Source: a virus (lineage: Duplodnaviria > Heunggongvirae > Uroviricota > Caudoviricetes). Taken from it: DNA of 19,489 bases. Position numbers and translations under genes: made by a program. This document shows, in pieces, positions 942-7,714 of the stretch (positions are counted from its first letter, which is position 1; each line of letters begins with the position of its first letter). Below the pieces are notes generated by a model. The model saw nothing but the letters and a program-made list of their open reading frames with translations, did no database searches and was not told where the DNA came from. The stretch lies in the IMG/VR virus record IMGVR_UViG_2609459850_000001; one strand, given 5' to 3'.

Positions 942-1237
942 TGTCAGGCTAATACAGCAATGCAATTCAACTACAGCAATGCCTCGTATTTAGGTGAATT
1001 TACAATATCGTCCAGTTCGGATGCCGGCTGCATTTCTGAAGATAAGGCATTTCGGTTCTCGTATTTTCCCCTCATGCTCGTCAGTCCTGCGCGTAGTAAG
1101 AAACAGGACACTCACACTAATTTGTGTGGGCATGCTGTGATGTCCTTCTGAATTATCCCCATGCCATTATGTAAAGCTCTGTTACAGATGCTCGTCACGG
1201 TTGTCAGGCTGTCGGGTCCTCCCAGTGGGGGGCCCTG

Positions 1238-1260
1238 CCACGGGGCGGGAGCGTCGCGGA
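1238..1260 (+). other. candidate cos site (cosN-like), CACG-GGGCGGGAGCGT-CGCGG
   Basis: Lies about 185 bp upstream of the terS start, the same spacing as lambda cosN to Nu1. The flanks resemble lambda cosN (GGGCGGCGACCT followed by CGCGGG) as I recall it, with a different central core. Confidence 0.35.
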
Positions 1261-1298
1261 AAAAGGCTAGTTTTTGAAATTTCATCCGTCATCACCAC

Positions 1299-1324
1299 TA
1301 CTGTAATAGATTGATATTACAGTA
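1299..1324. promoter_or_regulatory. perfect 10-bp inverted repeat TACTGTAATA-N6-TATTACAGTA in the cosB-equivalent region; candidate TerS or host-factor binding site
   Basis: Read directly from the sequence. Sits between the candidate cosN and terS, where lambda carries its R sites and IHF site. Confidence 0.3.
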
Positions 1325-1428
1325 TTTTTATTTTTGTGGTGTCGATTTTGATTGTTTTTTGTTCATCACTAACACCGTTTGCCTAAAGTCGTTCGCAAGA
1401 TGCATGTTTAAAACATTCTGGAGCGGGT

Positions 1429-1923
1429 ATGGATCGAGAGTTAAAAAATCTGACGCTGAATATCAGTCAATTGGCGGCACTGTCAGGTGTACATCGCCAG
1501 ACTGCTGCGGCAAGGCTGCAAAATCTACCCGTTGCAGGGGGGCATGAAAGCAACCTCAAGCTTTATCGGGTGGTTGATATTGTGTCGGCATTTCTGGCAT
1601 TACCACCGCCGGTTGCAGAAGGCGAAATGGACGCACATGAGCGCAAAGCCTGGTATCAGTCTGAACGTGAGCGTCTTAAGTTCGAACAGGAAACGGCACA
1701 ACTCATTCCGGCCAGTGATGTCAGACGGGAGTTTGCCATCTGGGCAAAAGCGGTCGTGCAGGTGCTGGAGACATTACCGGATATTCTTGAACGTGACTGC
1801 GGTCTGCAGCCTGCCGCTGTGAGCCGTGTTCAGTCCATTATTGATGATCTGCGCGATCAGATAGCCCTGCGGGTGACTGAAGCAGGTGCGGATGATGAGG
1901 AGGAATTACAGCAGGAGGAGTAA
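1429..1923 (+). CDS. terminase small subunit (Nu1/NohA family)
   Basis: 164-aa ORF with GGAG upstream; its stop overlaps the terL start (TAATG). N-terminal HTH-like segment followed by a G..G..LY motif, resembling lambda Nu1 architecture and E. coli NohA-type proteins. Position immediately 5' of terL. Confidence 0.8.
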   Translation: MDRELKNLTLNISQLAALSGVHRQTAAARLQNLPVAGGHESNLKLYRVVDIVSAFLALPPPVAEGEMDAHERKAWYQSERERLKFEQETAQLIPASDVRREFAIWAKAVVQVLETLPDILERDCGLQPAAVSRVQSIIDDLRDQIALRVTEAGADDEEELQQEE

Positions 1924-4025
1924 TGCTGAATCAGGAAACCGCAAAGGCAGCACGAACCGATTCAGGTTATATCCTTCGCGCACCGAGACGAATGCGGGTT
2001 GCTGATGCCGTTGCTCAGTATATGCGGGTGCCCATGGGGGCAGGGAACTCAGTCCCGTGGGATCCGCTGGTGGCACCGTATGTTATTGAGCCTATGAACT
2101 GCCTGGCCTCGCGTGAATACGACGCAGTGATATTTGTTGGCCCGGCACGAACCGGCAAGACTATCGGCCTGATTGACGGCTGGGTGATTTACAACGTGAT
2201 TTGCGATCCTGCTGATATGCTGATCATTCAGATGACGGAGGAAAAAGCCCGCGAACACTCCAAAAAACGACTCGCCAGAACGTTTCGCGTCAGCCCGGAA
2301 GTGGTCAGTCGCCTGAGTCCGAACAAAAATGACAACAACGTTTATGACAGAACATTCCTTGCTGGCAACTACCTGAAAATCGGCTGGCCGTCAGTCAATA
2401 TCATGTCTTCATCAGATTATAAATGCGTGGCGCTGACGGATTATGACCGTTTTCCGGAAGATATTGATGGTGAGGGGGATGCCTTCTCTCTTGCCTCAAA
2501 ACGTACCACCACATTTATGTCCAGTGGTATGACGCTGGTGGAGAGTTCCCCCGGCAGGGATGTGAAGGATGTGAAATGGCGACGGACTTCACCGCATGAG
2601 GCTCCACCAACCACGGGGATCCTGTCGCTCTATAACCGTGGCGATCGCCGTCGCTGGTACTGGCCCTGTCCACACTGTGGTGAGTATTTTCAGCCCTGCG
2701 GCGATGTGGTTGCTGGTTTCCGTGATATTGCCGATCCTGTGCTGGCAAGTGAGGCGGCTTATATTCAGTGTCCTTCCTGTTCAGGACGGATTTTGCCTGA
2801 ACAAAAACGCGAGCTGAACGGACGTGGGGTCTGGTTACGGGATGGTGAATCCATCAATGCAGATGGCAGTCGTTATGGTGATCCCCGGCGTTCACGTATT
2901 GCGTCATTCTGGATGGAGGGTCCGGCAGCTGCTTATCAGACACTCTCGCAACTCGTTTACAAACTGCTTACTGCAGAACAGGAATACGAGACAACCGGAA
3001 GTGAAGAGACACTCAAGACGGTTATCAATACCGACTGGGGATTACCTTATCTTCCCCGCGCCAGCATGGAGCAACGAAAAAGTGAATTGCTTGAGCAGCG
3101 GGCAGAGCCAGTTCCTTCCCGCAGTGTGCCGGATGGCGTTAATTTCCTTGTGGCGACAGTGGATGTGCAGGCGGGACGTCATCGCCGTTTTGTGGTTCAG
3201 GTAACGGGCTATGGCAGCCGTGGCGAACGCTGGATTATTGATCGTTACAACATCACGCAGTCATTGCGCGGTGACAGCGACGGGGAGAGCCAGCGAATTG
3301 ATCCGGCCAGCTATCCGGAAGACTGGGATGTCCTGCTGACGGATGTTTTTCATAAAAGCTGGCCGCTGGCCTCCGACCCTTCTCAACAAATGCGACTGAT
3401 GGCAATGGCGGTGGACTCCGGCGGTGAAGACGGGGTCACTGATAATGCCTATAAATTCTGGCGTCGTTGCCGTCGTGATGGCCTTGGTAAACGTATTTAC
3501 CTGTTTAAGGGCGACAGCATCCGGCGAGCAAAACTGATCACCCGTACATTCCCTGATAACACCGGACGAACGGGCCGACGGGCGCAGGCCGCAGGTGATG
3601 TGCCGCTCTGGCTTCTTCAGACGGATGCCCTGAAAGACCGGGTGAATAACGCGTTATGGCGTGACTCGCCAGGTCCCGGCTATGTGCATTTCCCTGACTG
3701 GCTGGGGAGCTGGTTTTACGACGAACTGACGTATGAAGAGCGGAGCAGTGACGGGAAATGGAGTAAGCCGGGTCGCGGTGCCAACGAAGCTTTTGACCTG
3801 ATGGTGTATGCCGAGGCTCTGGTCATTCTGCATGGATACGAAAAGATCCGCTGGCCGGATGCACCGGAGTGGGCGAGCCGGGAAACCTGGCTGGAGTGTG
3901 TCCCGGACAGTACCGAACCGTCACCCTCACCGGAACCGGTACCCACGCCTGTTAAAAAACAAAAACGGAAGAAAACATTAACTGACGATGTTAACCCCTG
4001 GCTGACTTCCGGAGGATGGTTATGA
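1923..4025 (+). CDS. terminase large subunit (gpA family)
   Basis: 700-aa ORF with a Walker A-like GPARTGKT near the N-terminus and a CPHCG...CPSC zinc-ribbon-like segment, as in lambda gpA. Position between terS and portal. Confidence 0.9.
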   Translation: MLNQETAKAARTDSGYILRAPRRMRVADAVAQYMRVPMGAGNSVPWDPLVAPYVIEPMNCLASREYDAVIFVGPARTGKTIGLIDGWVIYNVICDPADMLIIQMTEEKAREHSKKRLARTFRVSPEVVSRLSPNKNDNNVYDRTFLAGNYLKIGWPSVNIMSSSDYKCVALTDYDRFPEDIDGEGDAFSLASKRTTTFMSSGMTLVESSPGRDVKDVKWRRTSPHEAPPTTGILSLYNRGDRRRWYWPCPHCGEYFQPCGDVVAGFRDIADPVLASEAAYIQCPSCSGRILPEQKRELNGRGVWLRDGESINADGSRYGDPRRSRIASFWMEGPAAAYQTLSQLVYKLLTAEQEYETTGSEETLKTVINTDWGLPYLPRASMEQRKSELLEQRAEPVPSRSVPDGVNFLVATVDVQAGRHRRFVVQVTGYGSRGERWIIDRYNITQSLRGDSDGESQRIDPASYPEDWDVLLTDVFHKSWPLASDPSQQMRLMAMAVDSGGEDGVTDNAYKFWRRCRRDGLGKRIYLFKGDSIRRAKLITRTFPDNTGRTGRRAQAAGDVPLWLLQTDALKDRVNNALWRDSPGPGYVHFPDWLGSWFYDELTYEERSSDGKWSKPGRGANEAFDLMVYAEALVILHGYEKIRWPDAPEWASRETWLECVPDSTEPSPSPEPVPTPVKKQKRKKTLTDDVNPWLTSGGWL

Positions 4026-4234: not shown

Positions 4235-5742
4235 TGGCAATTCTTGATGATGTGATTGGCGTTTTTTCACCAGGATGGAAAGCGGCAAGGCTGCGTTCCC
4301 GTGCGGTGATCCAGGCTTATGAGGCCGTAAAAACGACGCGGACACACAAAGCCCGACGGGAGAACCGAACTGCCGACCAGTTAAGCCAGTACGGGGCCGT
4401 GTCGTTACGTGAGCAGGCTCGTTACCTTGATAACAACCACGATCTGGTCATTGGTGTATTTGACAAGCTGGAAGAACGGGTGGTGGGGAAAAACGGGATT
4501 ATTGTCGAGCCACATCCGGTATTACGCAATGGGGCCATTGCCCGTGATCTGGCAGCGGAGATACGTACCCGATGGAGTGAATGGTCTGTCAGTCCGGAGG
4601 TCACCGGGCAGTTTACCCGTCCGATGCTGGAACGTCTGATGCTGCGTACCTGGCTGCGCGATGGTGAGGTGTTTGCCCAGATGGTTTCCGGGCGCATAAA
4701 CAGCCTGACGCCTTCTGCCGGTGTTCATTTCTGGCTGGAGGCGCTCGAGCCGGACTTTATTCCCATGACCAGTGATGAGAGCAACAGGCTGAATCAGGGC
4801 GTGTTTGTTGATGACTGGGGGCGTCCCGAAAAATATCTGGTGTATAAAAGCCGTCCCGTATCCGGGCGGCAGATGGAAACCAAAGAAGTGGATGCAGAGC
4901 GAATGCTGCATCTTAAATTTGTTCGCCGTCTGCACCAGATGCGCGGGACGTCTTTGTTGTCCGGTGTGCTGATCCGCCTCAGTGCTCTGAAAGAGTATGA
5001 AGATTCTGAGCTGACTGCAGCAAGGATCGCCGCTGCTCTGGGGATGTACATCCGGAAAGGCGACGGACAGAGCTATGAAACGGATGGTAATGACAGCAAG
5101 GAGAATGAACGCGAGCTTACCATTCAGCCAGGCATTATTTACGACGATCTGAAACCCGGCGAAGAAATCGGAATGGTGAAGTCGGATCGCCCCAATCCTA
5201 ACCTTGAAACTTTTCGTAATGGTCAGTTGCGTGCCGTGGCTGCGGGCAGTCGTCTGAGTTTTTCCAGTACAGCGCGCAACTATAACGGCACTTACAGCGC
5301 CCAGCGTCAGGAGCTGGTTGAATCTACTGATGGCTACCTGATCCTGCAGGACTGGTTTATTGGTGCCGTCACCCGCCCGATGTACCGTGCCTGGCTGAAA
5401 CAGGCTGTGGTATCCGGTGTTATCAGGCTACCCCGCGATCTGGACCGATCTTCACTGTATACCGCGGTGTATTCCGGACCGGTGATGCCGTGGATTGACC
5501 CTGTTAAGGAGGCTGAGGCCTGGAAAATTCAGATTCGTGGTGGAGCGGCGACAGAATCAGACTGGGTACGTGCAGGTGGTCGTAATCCTGATGATGTCAA
5601 ACGTCGGCGCAAGGCCGAAATTGATGAAAACCGCAAGCTGGATCTGGTATTTGATACCGATCCGGCCAGTGATAAAGGAGGCAGCAGTGCCGCAACGAAA
5701 CGACAGGAGCCGCAGCACACCGACGACCAGTCCGAAGAATAA
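4234..5742 (+). CDS. portal protein (gpB-like)
   Basis: 502 aa from the ATG at 4234, which overlaps the W stop (TGATG). The track's 4162 start is a GTG inside W. Size and position are typical for a lambdoid portal. Confidence 0.85.
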   Translation: MAILDDVIGVFSPGWKAARLRSRAVIQAYEAVKTTRTHKARRENRTADQLSQYGAVSLREQARYLDNNHDLVIGVFDKLEERVVGKNGIIVEPHPVLRNGAIARDLAAEIRTRWSEWSVSPEVTGQFTRPMLERLMLRTWLRDGEVFAQMVSGRINSLTPSAGVHFWLEALEPDFIPMTSDESNRLNQGVFVDDWGRPEKYLVYKSRPVSGRQMETKEVDAERMLHLKFVRRLHQMRGTSLLSGVLIRLSALKEYEDSELTAARIAAALGMYIRKGDGQSYETDGNDSKENERELTIQPGIIYDDLKPGEEIGMVKSDRPNPNLETFRNGQLRAVAAGSRLSFSSTARNYNGTYSAQRQELVESTDGYLILQDWFIGAVTRPMYRAWLKQAVVSGVIRLPRDLDRSSLYTAVYSGPVMPWIDPVKEAEAWKIQIRGGAATESDWVRAGGRNPDDVKRRRKAEIDENRKLDLVFDTDPASDKGGSSAATKRQEPQHTDDQSEE

Positions 5743-5755
5743 TTCCTGGTTCAGG

Positions 5756-7714
5756 ATGCAGGCAGGTCACCAGAGTGACGCGGATATTTATATTTATGAC
5801 GAGATTGGTTTCTGGGGTGTTACGGCGAAGCAGTTTATCAGTGATCTGAATGCACTGGGCGATATCACCCACATTAATCTCCATATTAATTCACCGGGTG
5901 GCGATGTCTTTGAAGGCATCGCCATTTTTAATGCACTGAAAACACATGGTGCGTCCATTACCGTTTATGTCGACGGTGTGGCGGCGTCAATGGCGTCGGT
6001 CATTGCGATGGTGGGAAACCCGGTCATTATGCCGGAAAACTCCTTCATGATGATTCATAAACCATTTGGCTTTACGGGCGGTGATGCGGAGGACATGCGC
6101 ACCTATGCCGACCTGCTCGATAAAGTTGAGGCGGTTCTGTTACCCGCTTATGCACAGAAAACCGGGAAAACCACCGATGAAATTGCTGCCATGCTGGCGG
6201 ATGAGACCTGGATGTCCGGTGCCGAATGTCTGGCACAGGGATTTGCTGATCAGGTGACACCAGCCGTTAAGGCAATGGCATGTATTCAGTCAAAACGTAC
6301 AGAGGAATTTAAAAAGATGCCGGAATCCATTCGAAATATGATTACTCCGCCACGCAACAGTGCTCCACGCGTACAGGATGATGGACCTGCAGCCTCCCGG
6401 ACGCCAGTGCAGGCAGCAGCACCCGTGGTGGATGAAAACAGCATCCGTGCGCAGGTCCTGGCAGAGCAAAAAGCGCGTGTAAACGGTATTAATGCTCTGT
6501 TTGCCATGTTTGGCGGGCGTTATCAGTCGTTGCAGGCTCAGTGTCTTGCCGATCCTGAATGTTCGCTGGAGCAGGCCCGCGAAAAGCTGTTGAACGAGAT
6601 GGGGCGCGAGTCCACGCCATCCAATAAAAATACCCCGGCTCATATTTATGCCGGTAACGGTAATTTTGTGGGGGACGGGATCCGCCAGGCGCTGATGGCG
6701 CGCGCCGGGTTTGAAAAAACTGAACGTGATAATGTCTACAACGGGATGACCCTGCGTGAATATGCCCGTATGTCACTGACTGAACGTGGTATTGGTGTTT
6801 CCAGTTATAACCCGATGCAGATGGTCGGTGCGGCGTTCACACACAGTACGTCTGACTTCGGTAATATTCTGCTGGATGTTGCGAACAAAGCCATTCTGCA
6901 GGGCTGGGAAGATGCCCCTGAAACCTATGAACAGTGGACGCGGAAAGGTCAGTTGTCTGATTTTAAAATTGCCCATCGTGTGGGTATGGGGGGCTTCAGT
7001 GCTCTGCGTCAGGTGCGTGAAGGGGCAGAATATAAATACGTCACCACCGGAGATAAACAGGCCACTATTGCACTGGCGACCTATGGCGAGCTGTTCAGTA
7101 TCACCCGTCAGGCCATTATCAATGATGATCTGAATATGCTGACCGATGTCCCGATGAAGCTGGGCCGTGCGGCGAAATCCACTATTGCCGATCTGGTTTA
7201 TGCCATTCTGACGTCTAACCCGAAAATCTCCACAGATAATGTAAGTCTGTTCGATAAAGCGAAACATGCAAACGTACTGGAGAGCGCGGCAATGGACGTG
7301 GCATCGCTGGATAAAGCCCGCCAGTTGATGCGCGTTCAGAAAGAGGGTGAGCGTCATCTGAATATTCGTCCTGCGTTCGTACTGGTACCGACGGCGATGG
7401 AGTCTGTTGCTAACCAGGTCATTCGCTCCTCAAGTGTCAAGGGGGCTGACATTAACGCCGGTATTATTAACCCGGTGAAAGATTTTGCGACCGTTATTGC
7501 AGAGCCTCGTCTTGATGATAACAGCCAGACCACCTTCTACCTGGCTGCGTCCAAAGGCTCCGATACGATTGAAGTGGCTTATCTCAACGGTGTGGATACG
7601 CCATATATTGATCAGATGGAGGGCTTCAGTGTGGATGGCGTGACAACGAAAGTGCGTATTGACGCTGGTGTTGCGCCAGTTGATCACCGCGGCCTGGTGA
7701 AATGTACGGCGTAA
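5756..7714 (+). CDS. fused prohead protease (ClpP/S49-like) - scaffold - major capsid protein (tripartite capsid gene)
   Basis: N-terminal segment IYIYDEIGFWG...INSPGGDVFEGIAIFNALK...VDGVAASMASVIAM...MMIHKPF is protease-like. The middle is Ala/Gln/Glu-rich, and the C-terminal roughly 250 aa is capsid-like. The start is taken as the first ATG after the portal stop; the track's 5495 is a TTG inside portal. The start is uncertain (weak RBS). Confidence 0.75.
   Translation: MQAGHQSDADIYIYDEIGFWGVTAKQFISDLNALGDITHINLHINSPGGDVFEGIAIFNALKTHGASITVYVDGVAASMASVIAMVGNPVIMPENSFMMIHKPFGFTGGDAEDMRTYADLLDKVEAVLLPAYAQKTGKTTDEIAAMLADETWMSGAECLAQGFADQVTPAVKAMACIQSKRTEEFKKMPESIRNMITPPRNSAPRVQDDGPAASRTPVQAAAPVVDENSIRAQVLAEQKARVNGINALFAMFGGRYQSLQAQCLADPECSLEQAREKLLNEMGRESTPSNKNTPAHIYAGNGNFVGDGIRQALMARAGFEKTERDNVYNGMTLREYARMSLTERGIGVSSYNPMQMVGAAFTHSTSDFGNILLDVANKAILQGWEDAPETYEQWTRKGQLSDFKIAHRVGMGGFSALRQVREGAEYKYVTTGDKQATIALATYGELFSITRQAIINDDLNMLTDVPMKLGRAAKSTIADLVYAILTSNPKISTDNVSLFDKAKHANVLESAAMDVASLDKARQLMRVQKEGERHLNIRPAFVLVPTAMESVANQVIRSSSVKGADINAGIINPVKDFATVIAEPRLDDNSQTTFYLAASKGSDTIEVAYLNGVDTPYIDQMEGFSVDGVTTKVRIDAGVAPVDHRGLVKCTA

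What the first reader, a model, noticed from the sequence alone, without database searches (positions are those of the whole stretch)
1238..1260. Candidate cos site with lambda-like flanks but a divergent cohesive-end core
CACG-GGGCGGGAGCGT-CGCGG sits about 185 bp upstream of terS, the same spacing as lambda cosN to Nu1. As I recall lambda (GGGCGGCGACCT then CGCGGG), the outer bases match but the central 6 bases differ. If this is cosN, the cohesive ends would differ from the lambda/21/phi80 type, which bears on packaging specificity of this Nu1/NohA-type terminase.
Basis: partly seen in the sequence, partly recalled or inferred. Interest (0 to 1): 0.5.

Follow-up and report, generated by a model that had tools for sequence, protein, structure and literature searches.

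The report
Lambda-type cos site, known variant ends
This is very probably the real DNA-packaging cut site (cos) of an E. coli lambdoid prophage, with sticky ends that differ from lambda's at four bases, but this version is common, already marks the ends of deposited phage genomes, and is unlikely to set packaging specificity.

Summary
The motif is real: CACGGGGCGGGAGCGTCGCGG lies at 1239-1259, and bp 1 of the predicted end (1243) is 186 bp before the terS ATG at 1429 (lambda: 190).

It sits in a complete lambda-style cos. There is an exact cosQ heptamer GGGTCCT (1214-1220) 22 nt before the predicted nick. The CG dinucleotides flanking both nicks are kept, and end bases 1-6 are identical to lambda. 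Downstream lie the window's only IHF consensus site (1304-1316), candidate TerS-binding repeats, and a gpA-family large terminase.

The 12-nt end GGGCGGGAGCGT differs from lambda at bp 7, 8, 9 and 11. Published work describes this right half as naturally variable and without measurable effect on cos cleavage.

Phage cdtI and phage Tritos records start with this 12-mer and end at ...CCACG. Of 80 viral contigs chosen only by TerS identity, 79 have cosQ and 64 have this allele.

TerS is DUF1441, not Nu1/NohA. The allele does not look like a specificity determinant: one TerS occurs with five alleles, and one allele with two different cosB/TerS types.

Physical ends were not measured here. Verdict: correct call, ordinary and already known.

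The parts
1214..1220 (+). cosQ heptamer GGGTCCT, the packaging-termination signal. It lies 22 nt upstream of the predicted top-strand nick (23 nt in lambda).
   Evidence: It is identical to lambda bp 48473-48479, as read from the lambda right end. It is present in 79 of 80 loci chosen only by TerS identity, while the sequence on both sides of it is highly polymorphic. The role of cosQ is taken from PMC4669245.
1221..1240 (+). Spacer between cosQ and cosN. Its length is kept but its sequence is variable.
   Evidence: In the stretch from -22 to -4, 15 of 19 columns vary among 63 haplotypes, while the length stays 22 +/- 1.
1241..1256 (.). cosN in the 16-bp sense: CG | GGGCGGGAGCGT | CG. The predicted nicks are between 1242 and 1243 on the top strand and between 1254 and 1255 on the bottom strand.
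   Evidence: Alignment to the lambda cos junction. The flanking CG dinucleotides and bp 1-6 are identical to lambda. The phage cdtI and Tritos records start at the equivalent of 1243 and end at the equivalent of 1242. The nick positions are inferred, not measured.
1243..1254 (+). Predicted 12-nt 5' cohesive end GGGCGGGAGCGT. It differs from lambda's GGGCGGCGACCT at bp 7, 8, 9 and 11.
   Evidence: It is the second commonest of 22 alleles among 131 cosQ-cosN sites from IMG/VR (14 sites, against 66 for the lambda allele). It is present in 64 of 80 loci with the same TerS.
1255..1286 (+). I2-like conserved segment between cosN and cosB (CGCGGAAAAAGGCTAGTTTTTGAAATTTCATC).
   Evidence: It is nearly invariant among 63 haplotypes. 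Its first ~22 bases (through end bp ~34) are identical in cdtI and Tritos, which diverge after that point. It partly resembles lambda bp 13-40. The requirement for I2 in termination is from PMC4669245.
1289..1295 (+). Candidate R3 (TerS-binding repeat), core TCATCAC, at end bp 47-53 (lambda R3 is at bp 50-65).
   Evidence: A TCATCA(Y)CA(Y) run lies at the same distance from cosN in window-type, Sakai, mEp213, Kp4865-4 and Fels-1 cos regions, and is replaced by GGCGGCGGC in cdtI/Tritos, whose TerS DNA-binding end differs. This assignment is inferred and tentative.
1304..1316 (-). IHF consensus site (TATCAATCTATTA = WATCAANNNNTTR). It is the candidate I1 and is bracketed by a perfect 10-nt inverted repeat, 1299-1308 / 1315-1324.
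   Evidence: It is the only consensus match in the 19.5-kb window (0.44 expected in the whole window) and it falls inside cosB. A consensus match lies at the same place in cdtI, CP-1639 and L074. Population variation is concentrated on two of the four unspecified N positions.
1339..1345 (-). Candidate R2, in inverted orientation (GTGTCGA = reverse complement of TCGACAC).
   Evidence: The GTGTCGA core is invariant among haplotypes while the 3 bases before it vary. The same core occurs at the same place in mEp213-type, CP-1639, L087 and Gifsy-2. Tentative.
1363..1369 (+). Candidate R1, core TCATCAC, a direct copy of R3.
   Evidence: Sequence read. Equivalent GTTCATCA/GTTCGACA boxes occur in relatives. 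Tentative.
1429..1923 (+). terS, the small terminase subunit (164 aa, DUF1441 family).
   Evidence: Pfam PF07278, E 2.7e-41, with no Phage_Nu1 hit. It is annotated as terminase small subunit in mEp460, Ayreon and others, but only as 'DUF1441 family protein' in RefSeq E. coli. hhalign against a Nu1 profile gives probability 69% over the whole length, with the N-terminal helix-turn-helix regions aligned.
1923..4025 (+). terL, the large terminase subunit (700 aa, gpA family). This is the enzyme expected to nick cosN.
   Evidence: Pfam GpA_ATPase (E 1.7e-71) and GpA_nuclease (E 1.1e-85). It is 25% identical to lambda gpA over 623 aa, E 6e-19, and 79% identical to cdtI TerL over the first 248 aa.

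Best explanation
Window 1214-1428 is the cos site of an E. coli lambdoid prophage of the mEp460/Ayreon type, and it works like lambda cos.

Initiation: the DUF1441 small terminase binds short repeats in cosB (candidates at 1289-1295, 1339-1345 inverted and 1363-1369). IHF is expected to bend the DNA at 1304-1316. This anchors the gpA-type large terminase on cosN.

Cutting: the large terminase nicks the top strand between 1242 and 1243 and the bottom strand between 1254 and 1255. That leaves 12-nt 5' overhangs, GGGCGGGAGCGT at the left end and its complement at the right end.

Packaging and termination: packaging proceeds rightward through terS and terL. It ends at the next cos, where cosQ (GGGTCCT, 1214-1220), cosN and the I2-like segment are needed.

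[quoted passage not shown] That half is anchored through cosB and tolerates sequence drift. The allele is therefore a lineage marker of DUF1441-terminase phages, not a specificity determinant.

Shown here: sequence anatomy, conservation pattern, protein families and agreement with database record termini. Inferred: nick positions, overhang length and polarity, IHF and TerS binding, and the function of the R boxes.
For: - Anatomy. There is an exact cosQ heptamer 22 nt before the predicted nick (23 in lambda). CG flanks both nicks, bp 1-6 are identical to lambda, and terS starts at end bp 187 against 191 in lambda.
- Record termini. Phage cdtI (AB285204) and phage Tritos (OV696610, linear) both start GGGCGGGAGCGTCGCGG... 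and end ...CCACG.
- Proteins. TerL has the gpA ATPase and nuclease domains. Relatives of TerS are annotated as small terminases. The Ayreon authors, whose phage has an identical TerS, inferred cos packaging from TerL phylogeny.
- Selection footprint. In 80 IMG/VR loci picked only by TerS identity, cosQ is present in 79 and GGGCGG plus its flanks in essentially all. The sequence upstream of cosQ and the cosQ-cosN spacer are highly polymorphic. Variation inside the end is confined to bp 7, 11 and 12.
- IHF site. The only consensus match in the window lies in cosB, and population variation is concentrated on two of its four N positions.
- Literature. Feiss et al. 2015 describe exactly this pattern for lambda-like phages: cosQ and flanking CG conserved, bp 7-12 commonly different, no cosN specificity (PMC4669245). 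PMC9026076 gives the R3-I1-R2-R1 layout.
- Precedent. A related DUF1441-type phage, mEp213, has a published putative cos GGGCGGCGCGCT (PMC12315714).
Against: - No physical end mapping exists for this prophage, and none was found for its close relatives. The Tritos paper does not say how the record ends were set. The cdtI paper and Vahanian et al. 2017 are not held. The record termini may therefore have been placed by analogy with lambda.
- None of more than 120 IMG/VR contigs carrying the motif ends at it.
- Relatives (VT1-Sakai, Stx2 phages, Gifsy-2) have 10, 11 or 14 nt between the conserved flanks. Overhang length in this terminase lineage is thus not guaranteed to be 12.
- The R-box assignments rest on short degenerate cores. 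The repeat finder reported no direct repeat family in cosB.
- Whether the particular prophage in this window is inducible is unknown.
Confidence: 0.88

Rival explanations
1. The site is cosN, and its divergent right half is a packaging-specificity or compatibility determinant. On this view the DUF1441/gpA terminase requires GAGCGT and would not cut lambda-type cosN, and the reverse, so that cohesive-end alleles define incompatibility groups.
For: In 125 IMG/VR sites with readable downstream sequence, the lambda allele was found only with Nu1-type TerS (51 of 51 assignable), and GGGCGGGAGCGT only with DUF1441-type TerS (12 of 12 assignable). TerL here is only 25% identical to gpA, so its cosN contacts could differ.
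Against: Loci with 100% identical TerS carry five right-half alleles: GAGCGT 64, GAGCGG 13, and GAGCAT, GAGCAG and CAGCGG 1 each. The same allele is used with two cosB/TerS types that are 42% identical. Published swaps of lambda and N15 cosN show no specificity, and right-half changes have no measurable cleavage effect (PMC4669245). The allele-family association is what shared descent of tightly linked cos and terminase genes would produce anyway.
Confidence: 0.07
2. The site is a cos, but the cuts or the overhang differ from the lambda model (for example 10-11 nt, or shifted nicks), as the shorter G-rich cores of the Sakai/Stx relatives might suggest.
For: VT1-Sakai has 11 nt and Stx2_14040 and CP-1639 have 10 nt between ACG and CGCGG. 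Gifsy-2 has 14. No end mapping is available.
Against: In this window the distance between the conserved CG flanks is exactly 12, as in lambda, and two phage records are opened on that model. The cosQ-to-nick and nick-to-terS distances match lambda within 1 and 4 bp.
Confidence: 0.04
3. The motif is a chance GC-rich stretch, or another signal such as a transcription terminator or RNA structure, and the phage packages by a headful (pac) mechanism.
For: The bare 19-mer recurs by chance in GC-rich genomes.
Against: The composite cosQ-cosN pattern occurs in 0 of 200 shuffles. It is conserved at a fixed distance from terS in 79 of 80 loci. No terminator-like site was found, and the RNA fold z-score is -0.32. 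TerL belongs to the gpA family, not to a headful-type terminase family.
Confidence: 0.01

Closest known systems
Bacteriophage lambda cos (cosQ-cosN-cosB; terminase gpNu1/gpA)
   Same: The cosQ heptamer GGGTCCT is identical, and its distance to the nick is nearly identical (22 against 23 nt). CG flanks both nicks and end bp 1-6 are identical. The cosN-to-terS distance is 186 bp against 190. An IHF site lies between the first two candidate TerS-binding repeats, and the second repeat is inverted. TerL is of the gpA family.
   Different: End bp 7, 8, 9 and 11 differ. The cosB repeat sequence is unrelated (TCATCAC-type against lambda's R sequence). TerS is DUF1441 with no BLAST similarity to Nu1. 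TerL is only 25% identical. The Fur-box-like palindrome that precedes cosQ in lambda is absent here.
Phage cdtI (AB285204) and LF82 prophage Tritos (OV696610)
   Same: The cosQ heptamer, the 12-mer and the next ~22 bases are identical. Both records are opened exactly at the predicted nick. TerL is 79% identical over its N-terminal part. TerS is also DUF1441.
   Different: cosB diverges after about end bp 34 (GGCGGCGGC where the window has TCATCACCAC). TerS is only 42% identical, mostly in the N-terminal DNA-binding part. This suggests a different packaging specificity on the same cosQ-cosN module, as for lambda against phage 21.
mEp460 / Ayreon / mEp460_ev081 / vB_EcoS-569R4 (same terminase type)
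   Same: TerS is 99-100% identical, and the cos region is 92-99% identical.
   Different: These records are opened at terS or arbitrarily, and none annotates cos. The Ayreon paper states only that cos is expected within about 1 kb upstream of terS. ev081 has a ~98-bp tandem duplication inside cosB, and 4F5 lacks 3 nt of cosN.
mEp213 / LLS putative cos (GGGCGGCGCGCT), and the natural cosN variation described by the Feiss laboratory (N15, Gifsy-1, phiD326)
   Same: The architecture is the same, with a DUF1441-type TerS for the mEp213 type. Differences from lambda are restricted to bp 7-12, while cosQ and the CG flanks are conserved.
   Different: The right-half allele is different. This allele adds a change at bp 7, next to the symmetry centre, which is not among the examples quoted in the papers I could read (N15: 9 and 12; Gifsy-1: 8, 9 and 11).

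Membership tests
[quoted passage not shown] | [quoted passage not shown] | tested here: met
   8 of 12 bases are identical. bp 1-6 are identical and the differences are at 7, 8, 9 and 11.
[quoted passage not shown] | Virion DNA physically ends in 12-nt 5' overhangs at this site | not testable with these tools
   There is only indirect support. The cdtI and Tritos records start and end at the predicted nick, but how those ends were set is not documented in the papers I could read.
[quoted passage not shown] | Conserved 7-bp cosQ about 20-25 bp upstream of cosN | tested here: met
   GGGTCCT at 1214-1220, 22 nt before the nick. It is identical to lambda 48473-48479 and present in 79 of 80 same-TerS loci.
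[quoted passage not shown] | Conserved CG dinucleotides flanking both nick positions | tested here: met
   CG at 1241-1242 and CG at 1255-1256. They are near-invariant in relatives. The feature is as stated in PMC4669245.
[quoted passage not shown] | cosB between cosN and terS with an IHF site and TerS-binding R repeats (R3-I1-R2-R1, with R2 inverted) | tested here: inconclusive
   An IHF consensus is present and is the only one in the window. Candidate 7-bp R cores lie in the expected order and orientation and are conserved by position across relatives. They are short, however, and were not detected as a repeat family by the repeat finder. Binding was not tested.
[quoted passage not shown] | gpA-family large terminase encoded just downstream | tested here: met
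   GpA_ATPase and GpA_nuclease, E 1.7e-71 and 1.1e-85. 25% identity to gpA, E 6e-19.
Phage_Nu1 / NohA small terminase family (Pfam PF07471) | Significant match to the Phage_Nu1 profile, or sequence similarity to gpNu1 | tested here: not met
   There is no PF07471 hit, whereas lambda Nu1 scores E 2.5e-100 in the same run. BLASTP against Nu1 gives E=20. hhalign of the family profiles gives only 69% probability. This is compatible with distant common ancestry and the same domain order, but it is not membership.
DUF1441 small terminase family (Pfam PF07278) | Match above the Pfam gathering score | tested here: met
   141.4 bits against a cut-off of 35.1, E 2.7e-41, covering profile positions 1-146 of 147.
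Headful (pac) packaging system | Large terminase of a headful-type family, and no cos-like site | tested here: not met
   Only gpA-family domains were found in TerL, and a complete cosQ-cosN-cosB arrangement is present.

The most novel reading that the evidence does not exclude
Right-half cosN alleles are not neutral drift. They act as cohesive-end compatibility groups that track terminase lineage (lambda allele with Nu1, GAGCGT-type alleles with DUF1441). Four mismatches in 12 would prevent annealing between ends made at different cos types. That would limit productive cos-to-cos packaging, chromosome cyclization of hybrids, and satellite hijacking among the several lambdoid prophages that share one E. 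coli cell.
Probability: 0.08. Interest if true: 0.45.

Novelty: already known. Interest (0 to 1): 0.15.

Why it matters
It has practical value only. It fixes the likely genome ends and packaging origin for a very common E. coli prophage type. A homolog of this cos-terS segment is present in 2140 of 5426 complete E. coli genomes, and covers at least 80% of the segment in 1181 of them. In RefSeq the site is unannotated and TerS is labelled only 'DUF1441 family protein'. [quoted passage not shown] It does not reveal a new packaging mechanism or a new specificity rule.

Tried and rejected
- Full-text search for the 12-mer, its reverse complement and shorter forms found no phage paper that spells out this allele. 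It did lead to PMC12315714, which covers the related mEp213 allele.
- The two most relevant papers are not held: Vahanian et al. 2017 (Virology 509:140) and Asakura et al. 2007 (PNAS, the cdtI phage). I could not check whether this allele is listed there, or whether the cdtI ends were measured.
- The Tritos paper says nothing on cos or termini. The Ayreon note only predicts cos packaging.
- I looked for IMG/VR contigs that end exactly at the site, as a proxy for physical ends. None of 120 listed contigs does; most are prophages in isolate genomes.
- A scan of one genome per species for the 19-mer mostly returned chance hits in GC-rich taxa. Only Escherichia, plus two probably mis-binned MAG contigs, have the true context.
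- The terminator or RNA-structure alternative was rejected: no terminator-like site, and a fold z-score of -0.32.
- A sequence search of TerS against solved structures found nothing useful.
- The repeat finder did not recover R boxes as a repeat family. The R assignment comes from cross-phage comparison and stays tentative.

Full report
**Observation.** The 21-mer CACGGGGCGGGAGCGTCGCGG lies at window 1239-1259. Lambda's left end reads GGGCGGCGACCT CGCGGG and its right end finishes ...GGTTACG, so the recalled reference was right. When the two are aligned, ACG precedes and CGCGG follows a 12-mer in both. The 12-mers differ at bp 7, 8, 9 and 11 (four of twelve), while bp 10 and 12 match. The first base of the predicted end (1243) is 186 bp before the terS ATG at 1429; in lambda Nu1 starts at bp 191.

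Twenty-two nucleotides upstream of the predicted nick is GGGTCCT (1214-1220). This is identical to the lambda heptamer at 48473-48479, which lies 23 nt before lambda's nick. That heptamer is cosQ, the termination subsite. The composite pattern (cosQ, a 20-25 nt gap, CG, GGGCGG, N6, CG) occurs once in the window and in none of 200 shuffles. The bare 19-mer is not diagnostic: in one genome per species it recurs mostly in GC-rich actinomycetes by chance. Only Escherichia coli, E. ruysiae and two probably mis-binned MAG contigs show the true cosQ and downstream context.

**Genes.**
- The ORF at 1429-1923 matches Pfam DUF1441 (E 2.7e-41) and not Phage_Nu1. Lambda Nu1 scored E 2.5e-100 for Phage_Nu1 in the same run.
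- BLASTP of this protein against Nu1 finds nothing (E=20).
- I built profiles from 32 DUF1441-type and 40 Nu1-type small terminases found next to cos sites. These align over the whole length with 69% probability (E 4e-5), with the N-terminal helix-turn-helix segments superposed. This suggests a distant relationship and the same domain order, but it is not family membership.
- The next ORF (1923-4025) has the gpA ATPase and gpA nuclease domains. It is 25% identical to lambda gpA.
- The rest of the window is a Gifsy-2-like head and lambda-like tail module.
- RefSeq annotates TerS only as 'DUF1441 family protein' and annotates no cos.

**Related sequences.**
- The 1-kb cos-terS segment has matches in 2140 of 5426 complete E. 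coli genomes, and these cover at least 80% of it in 1181.
- Among deposited phages, mEp460, Ayreon, mEp460_ev081, 4F5, phi458 and vB_EcoS-569R4 share the terminase and the cos region.
- Two records matter most. Phage cdtI (AB285204) begins GGGCGGGAGCGTCGCGGAAAAAGGCTAGTTTTT and ends ...GGCCTGCCACG. Phage Tritos (OV696610, a linear record, prophage 3 of strain LF82) has the same termini. Both were therefore opened exactly at the predicted top-strand nick.
- I could not establish that these ends were measured. The Tritos paper does not mention cos or termini, and the cdtI paper is not held.
- The Ayreon note only predicts cos packaging from TerL phylogeny and places cos 'within ~1 kbp upstream' of terS.

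I fetched 80 IMG/VR loci chosen only because they encode the same TerS (100% identity in the best segment), and read the sequence at the fixed distance upstream.
- cosQ is present in 79 of 80.
- The 12-mer is GGGCGGGAGCGT in 64, GGGCGGGAGCGG in 13, and GAGCAT, GAGCAG or CAGCGG in one each.
- Across 63 distinct haplotypes, the 11 bases before cosQ all vary, and 15 of 19 spacer columns vary. Within the end, only bp 7, 11 and 12 vary. The segment from bp 18 to 40 is invariant.
- That haplotype table was filtered on cosQ and GGGCGG being in register, so their invariance there is by construction. The unfiltered counts are the evidence for their conservation.

This is the footprint expected of functional cosQ, cosN-left and I2 elements separated by unconstrained DNA.

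**Allele spectrum.** A pattern scan of IMG/VR that left bp 7-12 free returned 131 sites with 22 right-half alleles. Lambda's allele was found 66 times and the window's 14 times, making it the second commonest. Where the downstream gene could be read, the lambda allele always preceded a Nu1-type TerS (51 of 51 assignable). The window's allele always preceded a DUF1441-type TerS (12 of 12 assignable).

**cosB.**
- The only match to the IHF consensus WATCAANNNNTTR in the whole 19.5-kb window is at 1304-1316, at end bp 62-74. It is bracketed by a perfect 10-nt inverted repeat.
- cdtI has a consensus match at bp 64-76, and CP-1639 and L074 at bp 61-62.
- Population variation in the site is concentrated on two of its four unspecified positions.
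- On either side are short boxes: TCATCAC at 1289-1295, GTGTCGA (inverted) at 1339-1345 and TCATCAC at 1363-1369.
- Relatives carry TCATCATCATCAT-like runs, GTGTCGA/GATGATGA and GTTCGACA/GTTCATCA boxes at the same positions.
- This reproduces the R3-I1-R2(inverted)-R1 order described for lambda, 21, phi80 and Gifsy-1 (PMC9026076). The boxes are short, however, and binding is untested, so I mark them tentative.
- cdtI and Tritos share cosQ, cosN and the next ~22 bases with the window, then diverge (GGCGGCGGC in place of TCATCACCAC). Their TerS is 42% identical, and TerL 79% identical. This is one cosQ-cosN module serving two probable packaging specificities, as with lambda and 21.

**What is already known.** Feiss et al. 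2015 (PMC4669245) define lambda-like phages by 12-base 5' ends similar to lambda's. They make the following points.
- Differences at bp 7-12 are common (N15: 9 and 12; Gifsy-1: 8, 9 and 11).
- cosQ and the CG pairs flanking the nicks are highly conserved.
- Right-half changes have no measurable effect on cos cleavage.
- Lambda and N15 terminases show no cosN specificity.

They cite Vahanian et al. 2017, a survey of natural cosN variation, which I could not read. A 2025 paper gives the putative cos of the DUF1441-type phage mEp213 as GGGCGGCGCGCT (PMC12315714). The window's site fits this description point by point. I found no paper that spells out GGGCGGGAGCGT, but the sequence forms the termini of two public phage records.

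**Mechanism.** The best explanation is a lambda-style cos.
1. TerS binds cosB, with an IHF-induced bend, and positions TerL.
2. TerL nicks at 1242/1243 (top strand) and 1254/1255 (bottom strand).
3. Packaging runs rightward and terminates at the next cosQ-cosN.

The anatomy, conservation and protein families are shown here. The nick positions, overhang length, and IHF and TerS binding are inferred.

The main rival is that the right half is a specificity determinant. The allele/terminase-family association favours it. Against it stand the five alleles found with one TerS, the one allele shared by two TerS types, and the published swap experiments. Linkage by descent explains the association.

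A minor rival is a different overhang length. It is suggested by relatives with 10, 11 or 14 nt between the flanks. It cannot be excluded without end mapping.

A terminator or RNA-structure reading is rejected.

**Verdict.** The terminase is mis-typed (DUF1441, not Nu1/NohA), and the suggested link to packaging specificity is not supported. The feature is an ordinary, widespread and already recorded allele of a well-understood system, so interest is low.

Noticed in passing
L135 (LR597641.1, mEp460_ev081) about 311-505: This record carries a tandem duplication of about 98 bp inside cosB, from GCTAGTTTTTGAAA to GATTGTTTTTTGT. That covers the I2-like segment, candidate R3, the IHF site and candidate R2. 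It is either a real cosB duplication or an assembly artefact near the genome ends.
   Followed up: no
L003 1-30 and L134 end (LR595868.1, mEp460_4F5): The record is opened 5 nt upstream of the predicted nick and reads GGGCGGGAGCG-CGG, 3 nt shorter than the window and other relatives. This looks like an assembly problem at the physical ends of virion DNA.
   Followed up: partly
L008 (VT1-Sakai), L012 (Stx2_14040), L013 (CP-1639), around locus position 930-950: These Shiga-toxin-phage relatives have only 11 nt (GGGCGGGCGGG) or 10 nt (GGGCGGGCGG) between the conserved ACG and CGCGG flanks. Either the cohesive ends are shorter in this sublineage or there are homopolymer sequencing differences.
   Followed up: no
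L216 (Gifsy-2) 205-250; L010 (Fels-1) 880-925: The Salmonella relatives read GGTACTCC where cosQ GGGTCCT is expected. Gifsy-2 has a 14-nt, more divergent core (GGTGGCTTCGGGCT) between the flanks. So cosQ is not universally invariant in DUF1441-terminase phages.
   Followed up: no
window 1195-1213, compared with L007 (lambda right end), L005 (cdtI), L008, L009 and L011: A Fur-box-like palindrome, GATAATCATTATC, lies immediately upstream of cosQ in lambda, cdtI, VT1-Sakai, mEp213 and Kp4865-4. The window and Tritos lack it and instead have GTCAGGCTGTC-type repeats. The mosaic junction sits right at the left edge of cosQ.
   Followed up: no
window 1299-1324: A perfect 10-nt inverted repeat, TACTGTAATA / TATTACAGTA, brackets the IHF core and forms a 26-bp palindrome. 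It is conserved in mEp460-type phages. Its role beyond the IHF site is unknown.
   Followed up: partly
window 1429-1923: RefSeq names the small terminase only 'DUF1441 family protein'. Profile-profile comparison suggests it is a distant relative of lambda Nu1 with the same domain order: probability 69%, with the helix-turn-helix regions aligned.
   Followed up: partly
L040, L065, L074 (IMG/VR contigs): Single viral contigs carry two or three cosQ-cosN sites, some in opposite orientation and less than 1 kb apart. These could be adjacent prophages, satellites with their own cos, or mis-assemblies.
   Followed up: no
window 5687-7714: The head module encodes a ClpP-like prohead protease fused to the major capsid protein, the Gifsy-2 arrangement, according to the RefSeq annotation of a near-identical E. 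coli locus.
   Followed up: no
L135 223-348 and several phage records: Several deposited phage genomes annotate a short 'hypothetical protein' ORF lying directly across the cosQ-cosN sequence. This is probably a spurious gene call.
   Followed up: no
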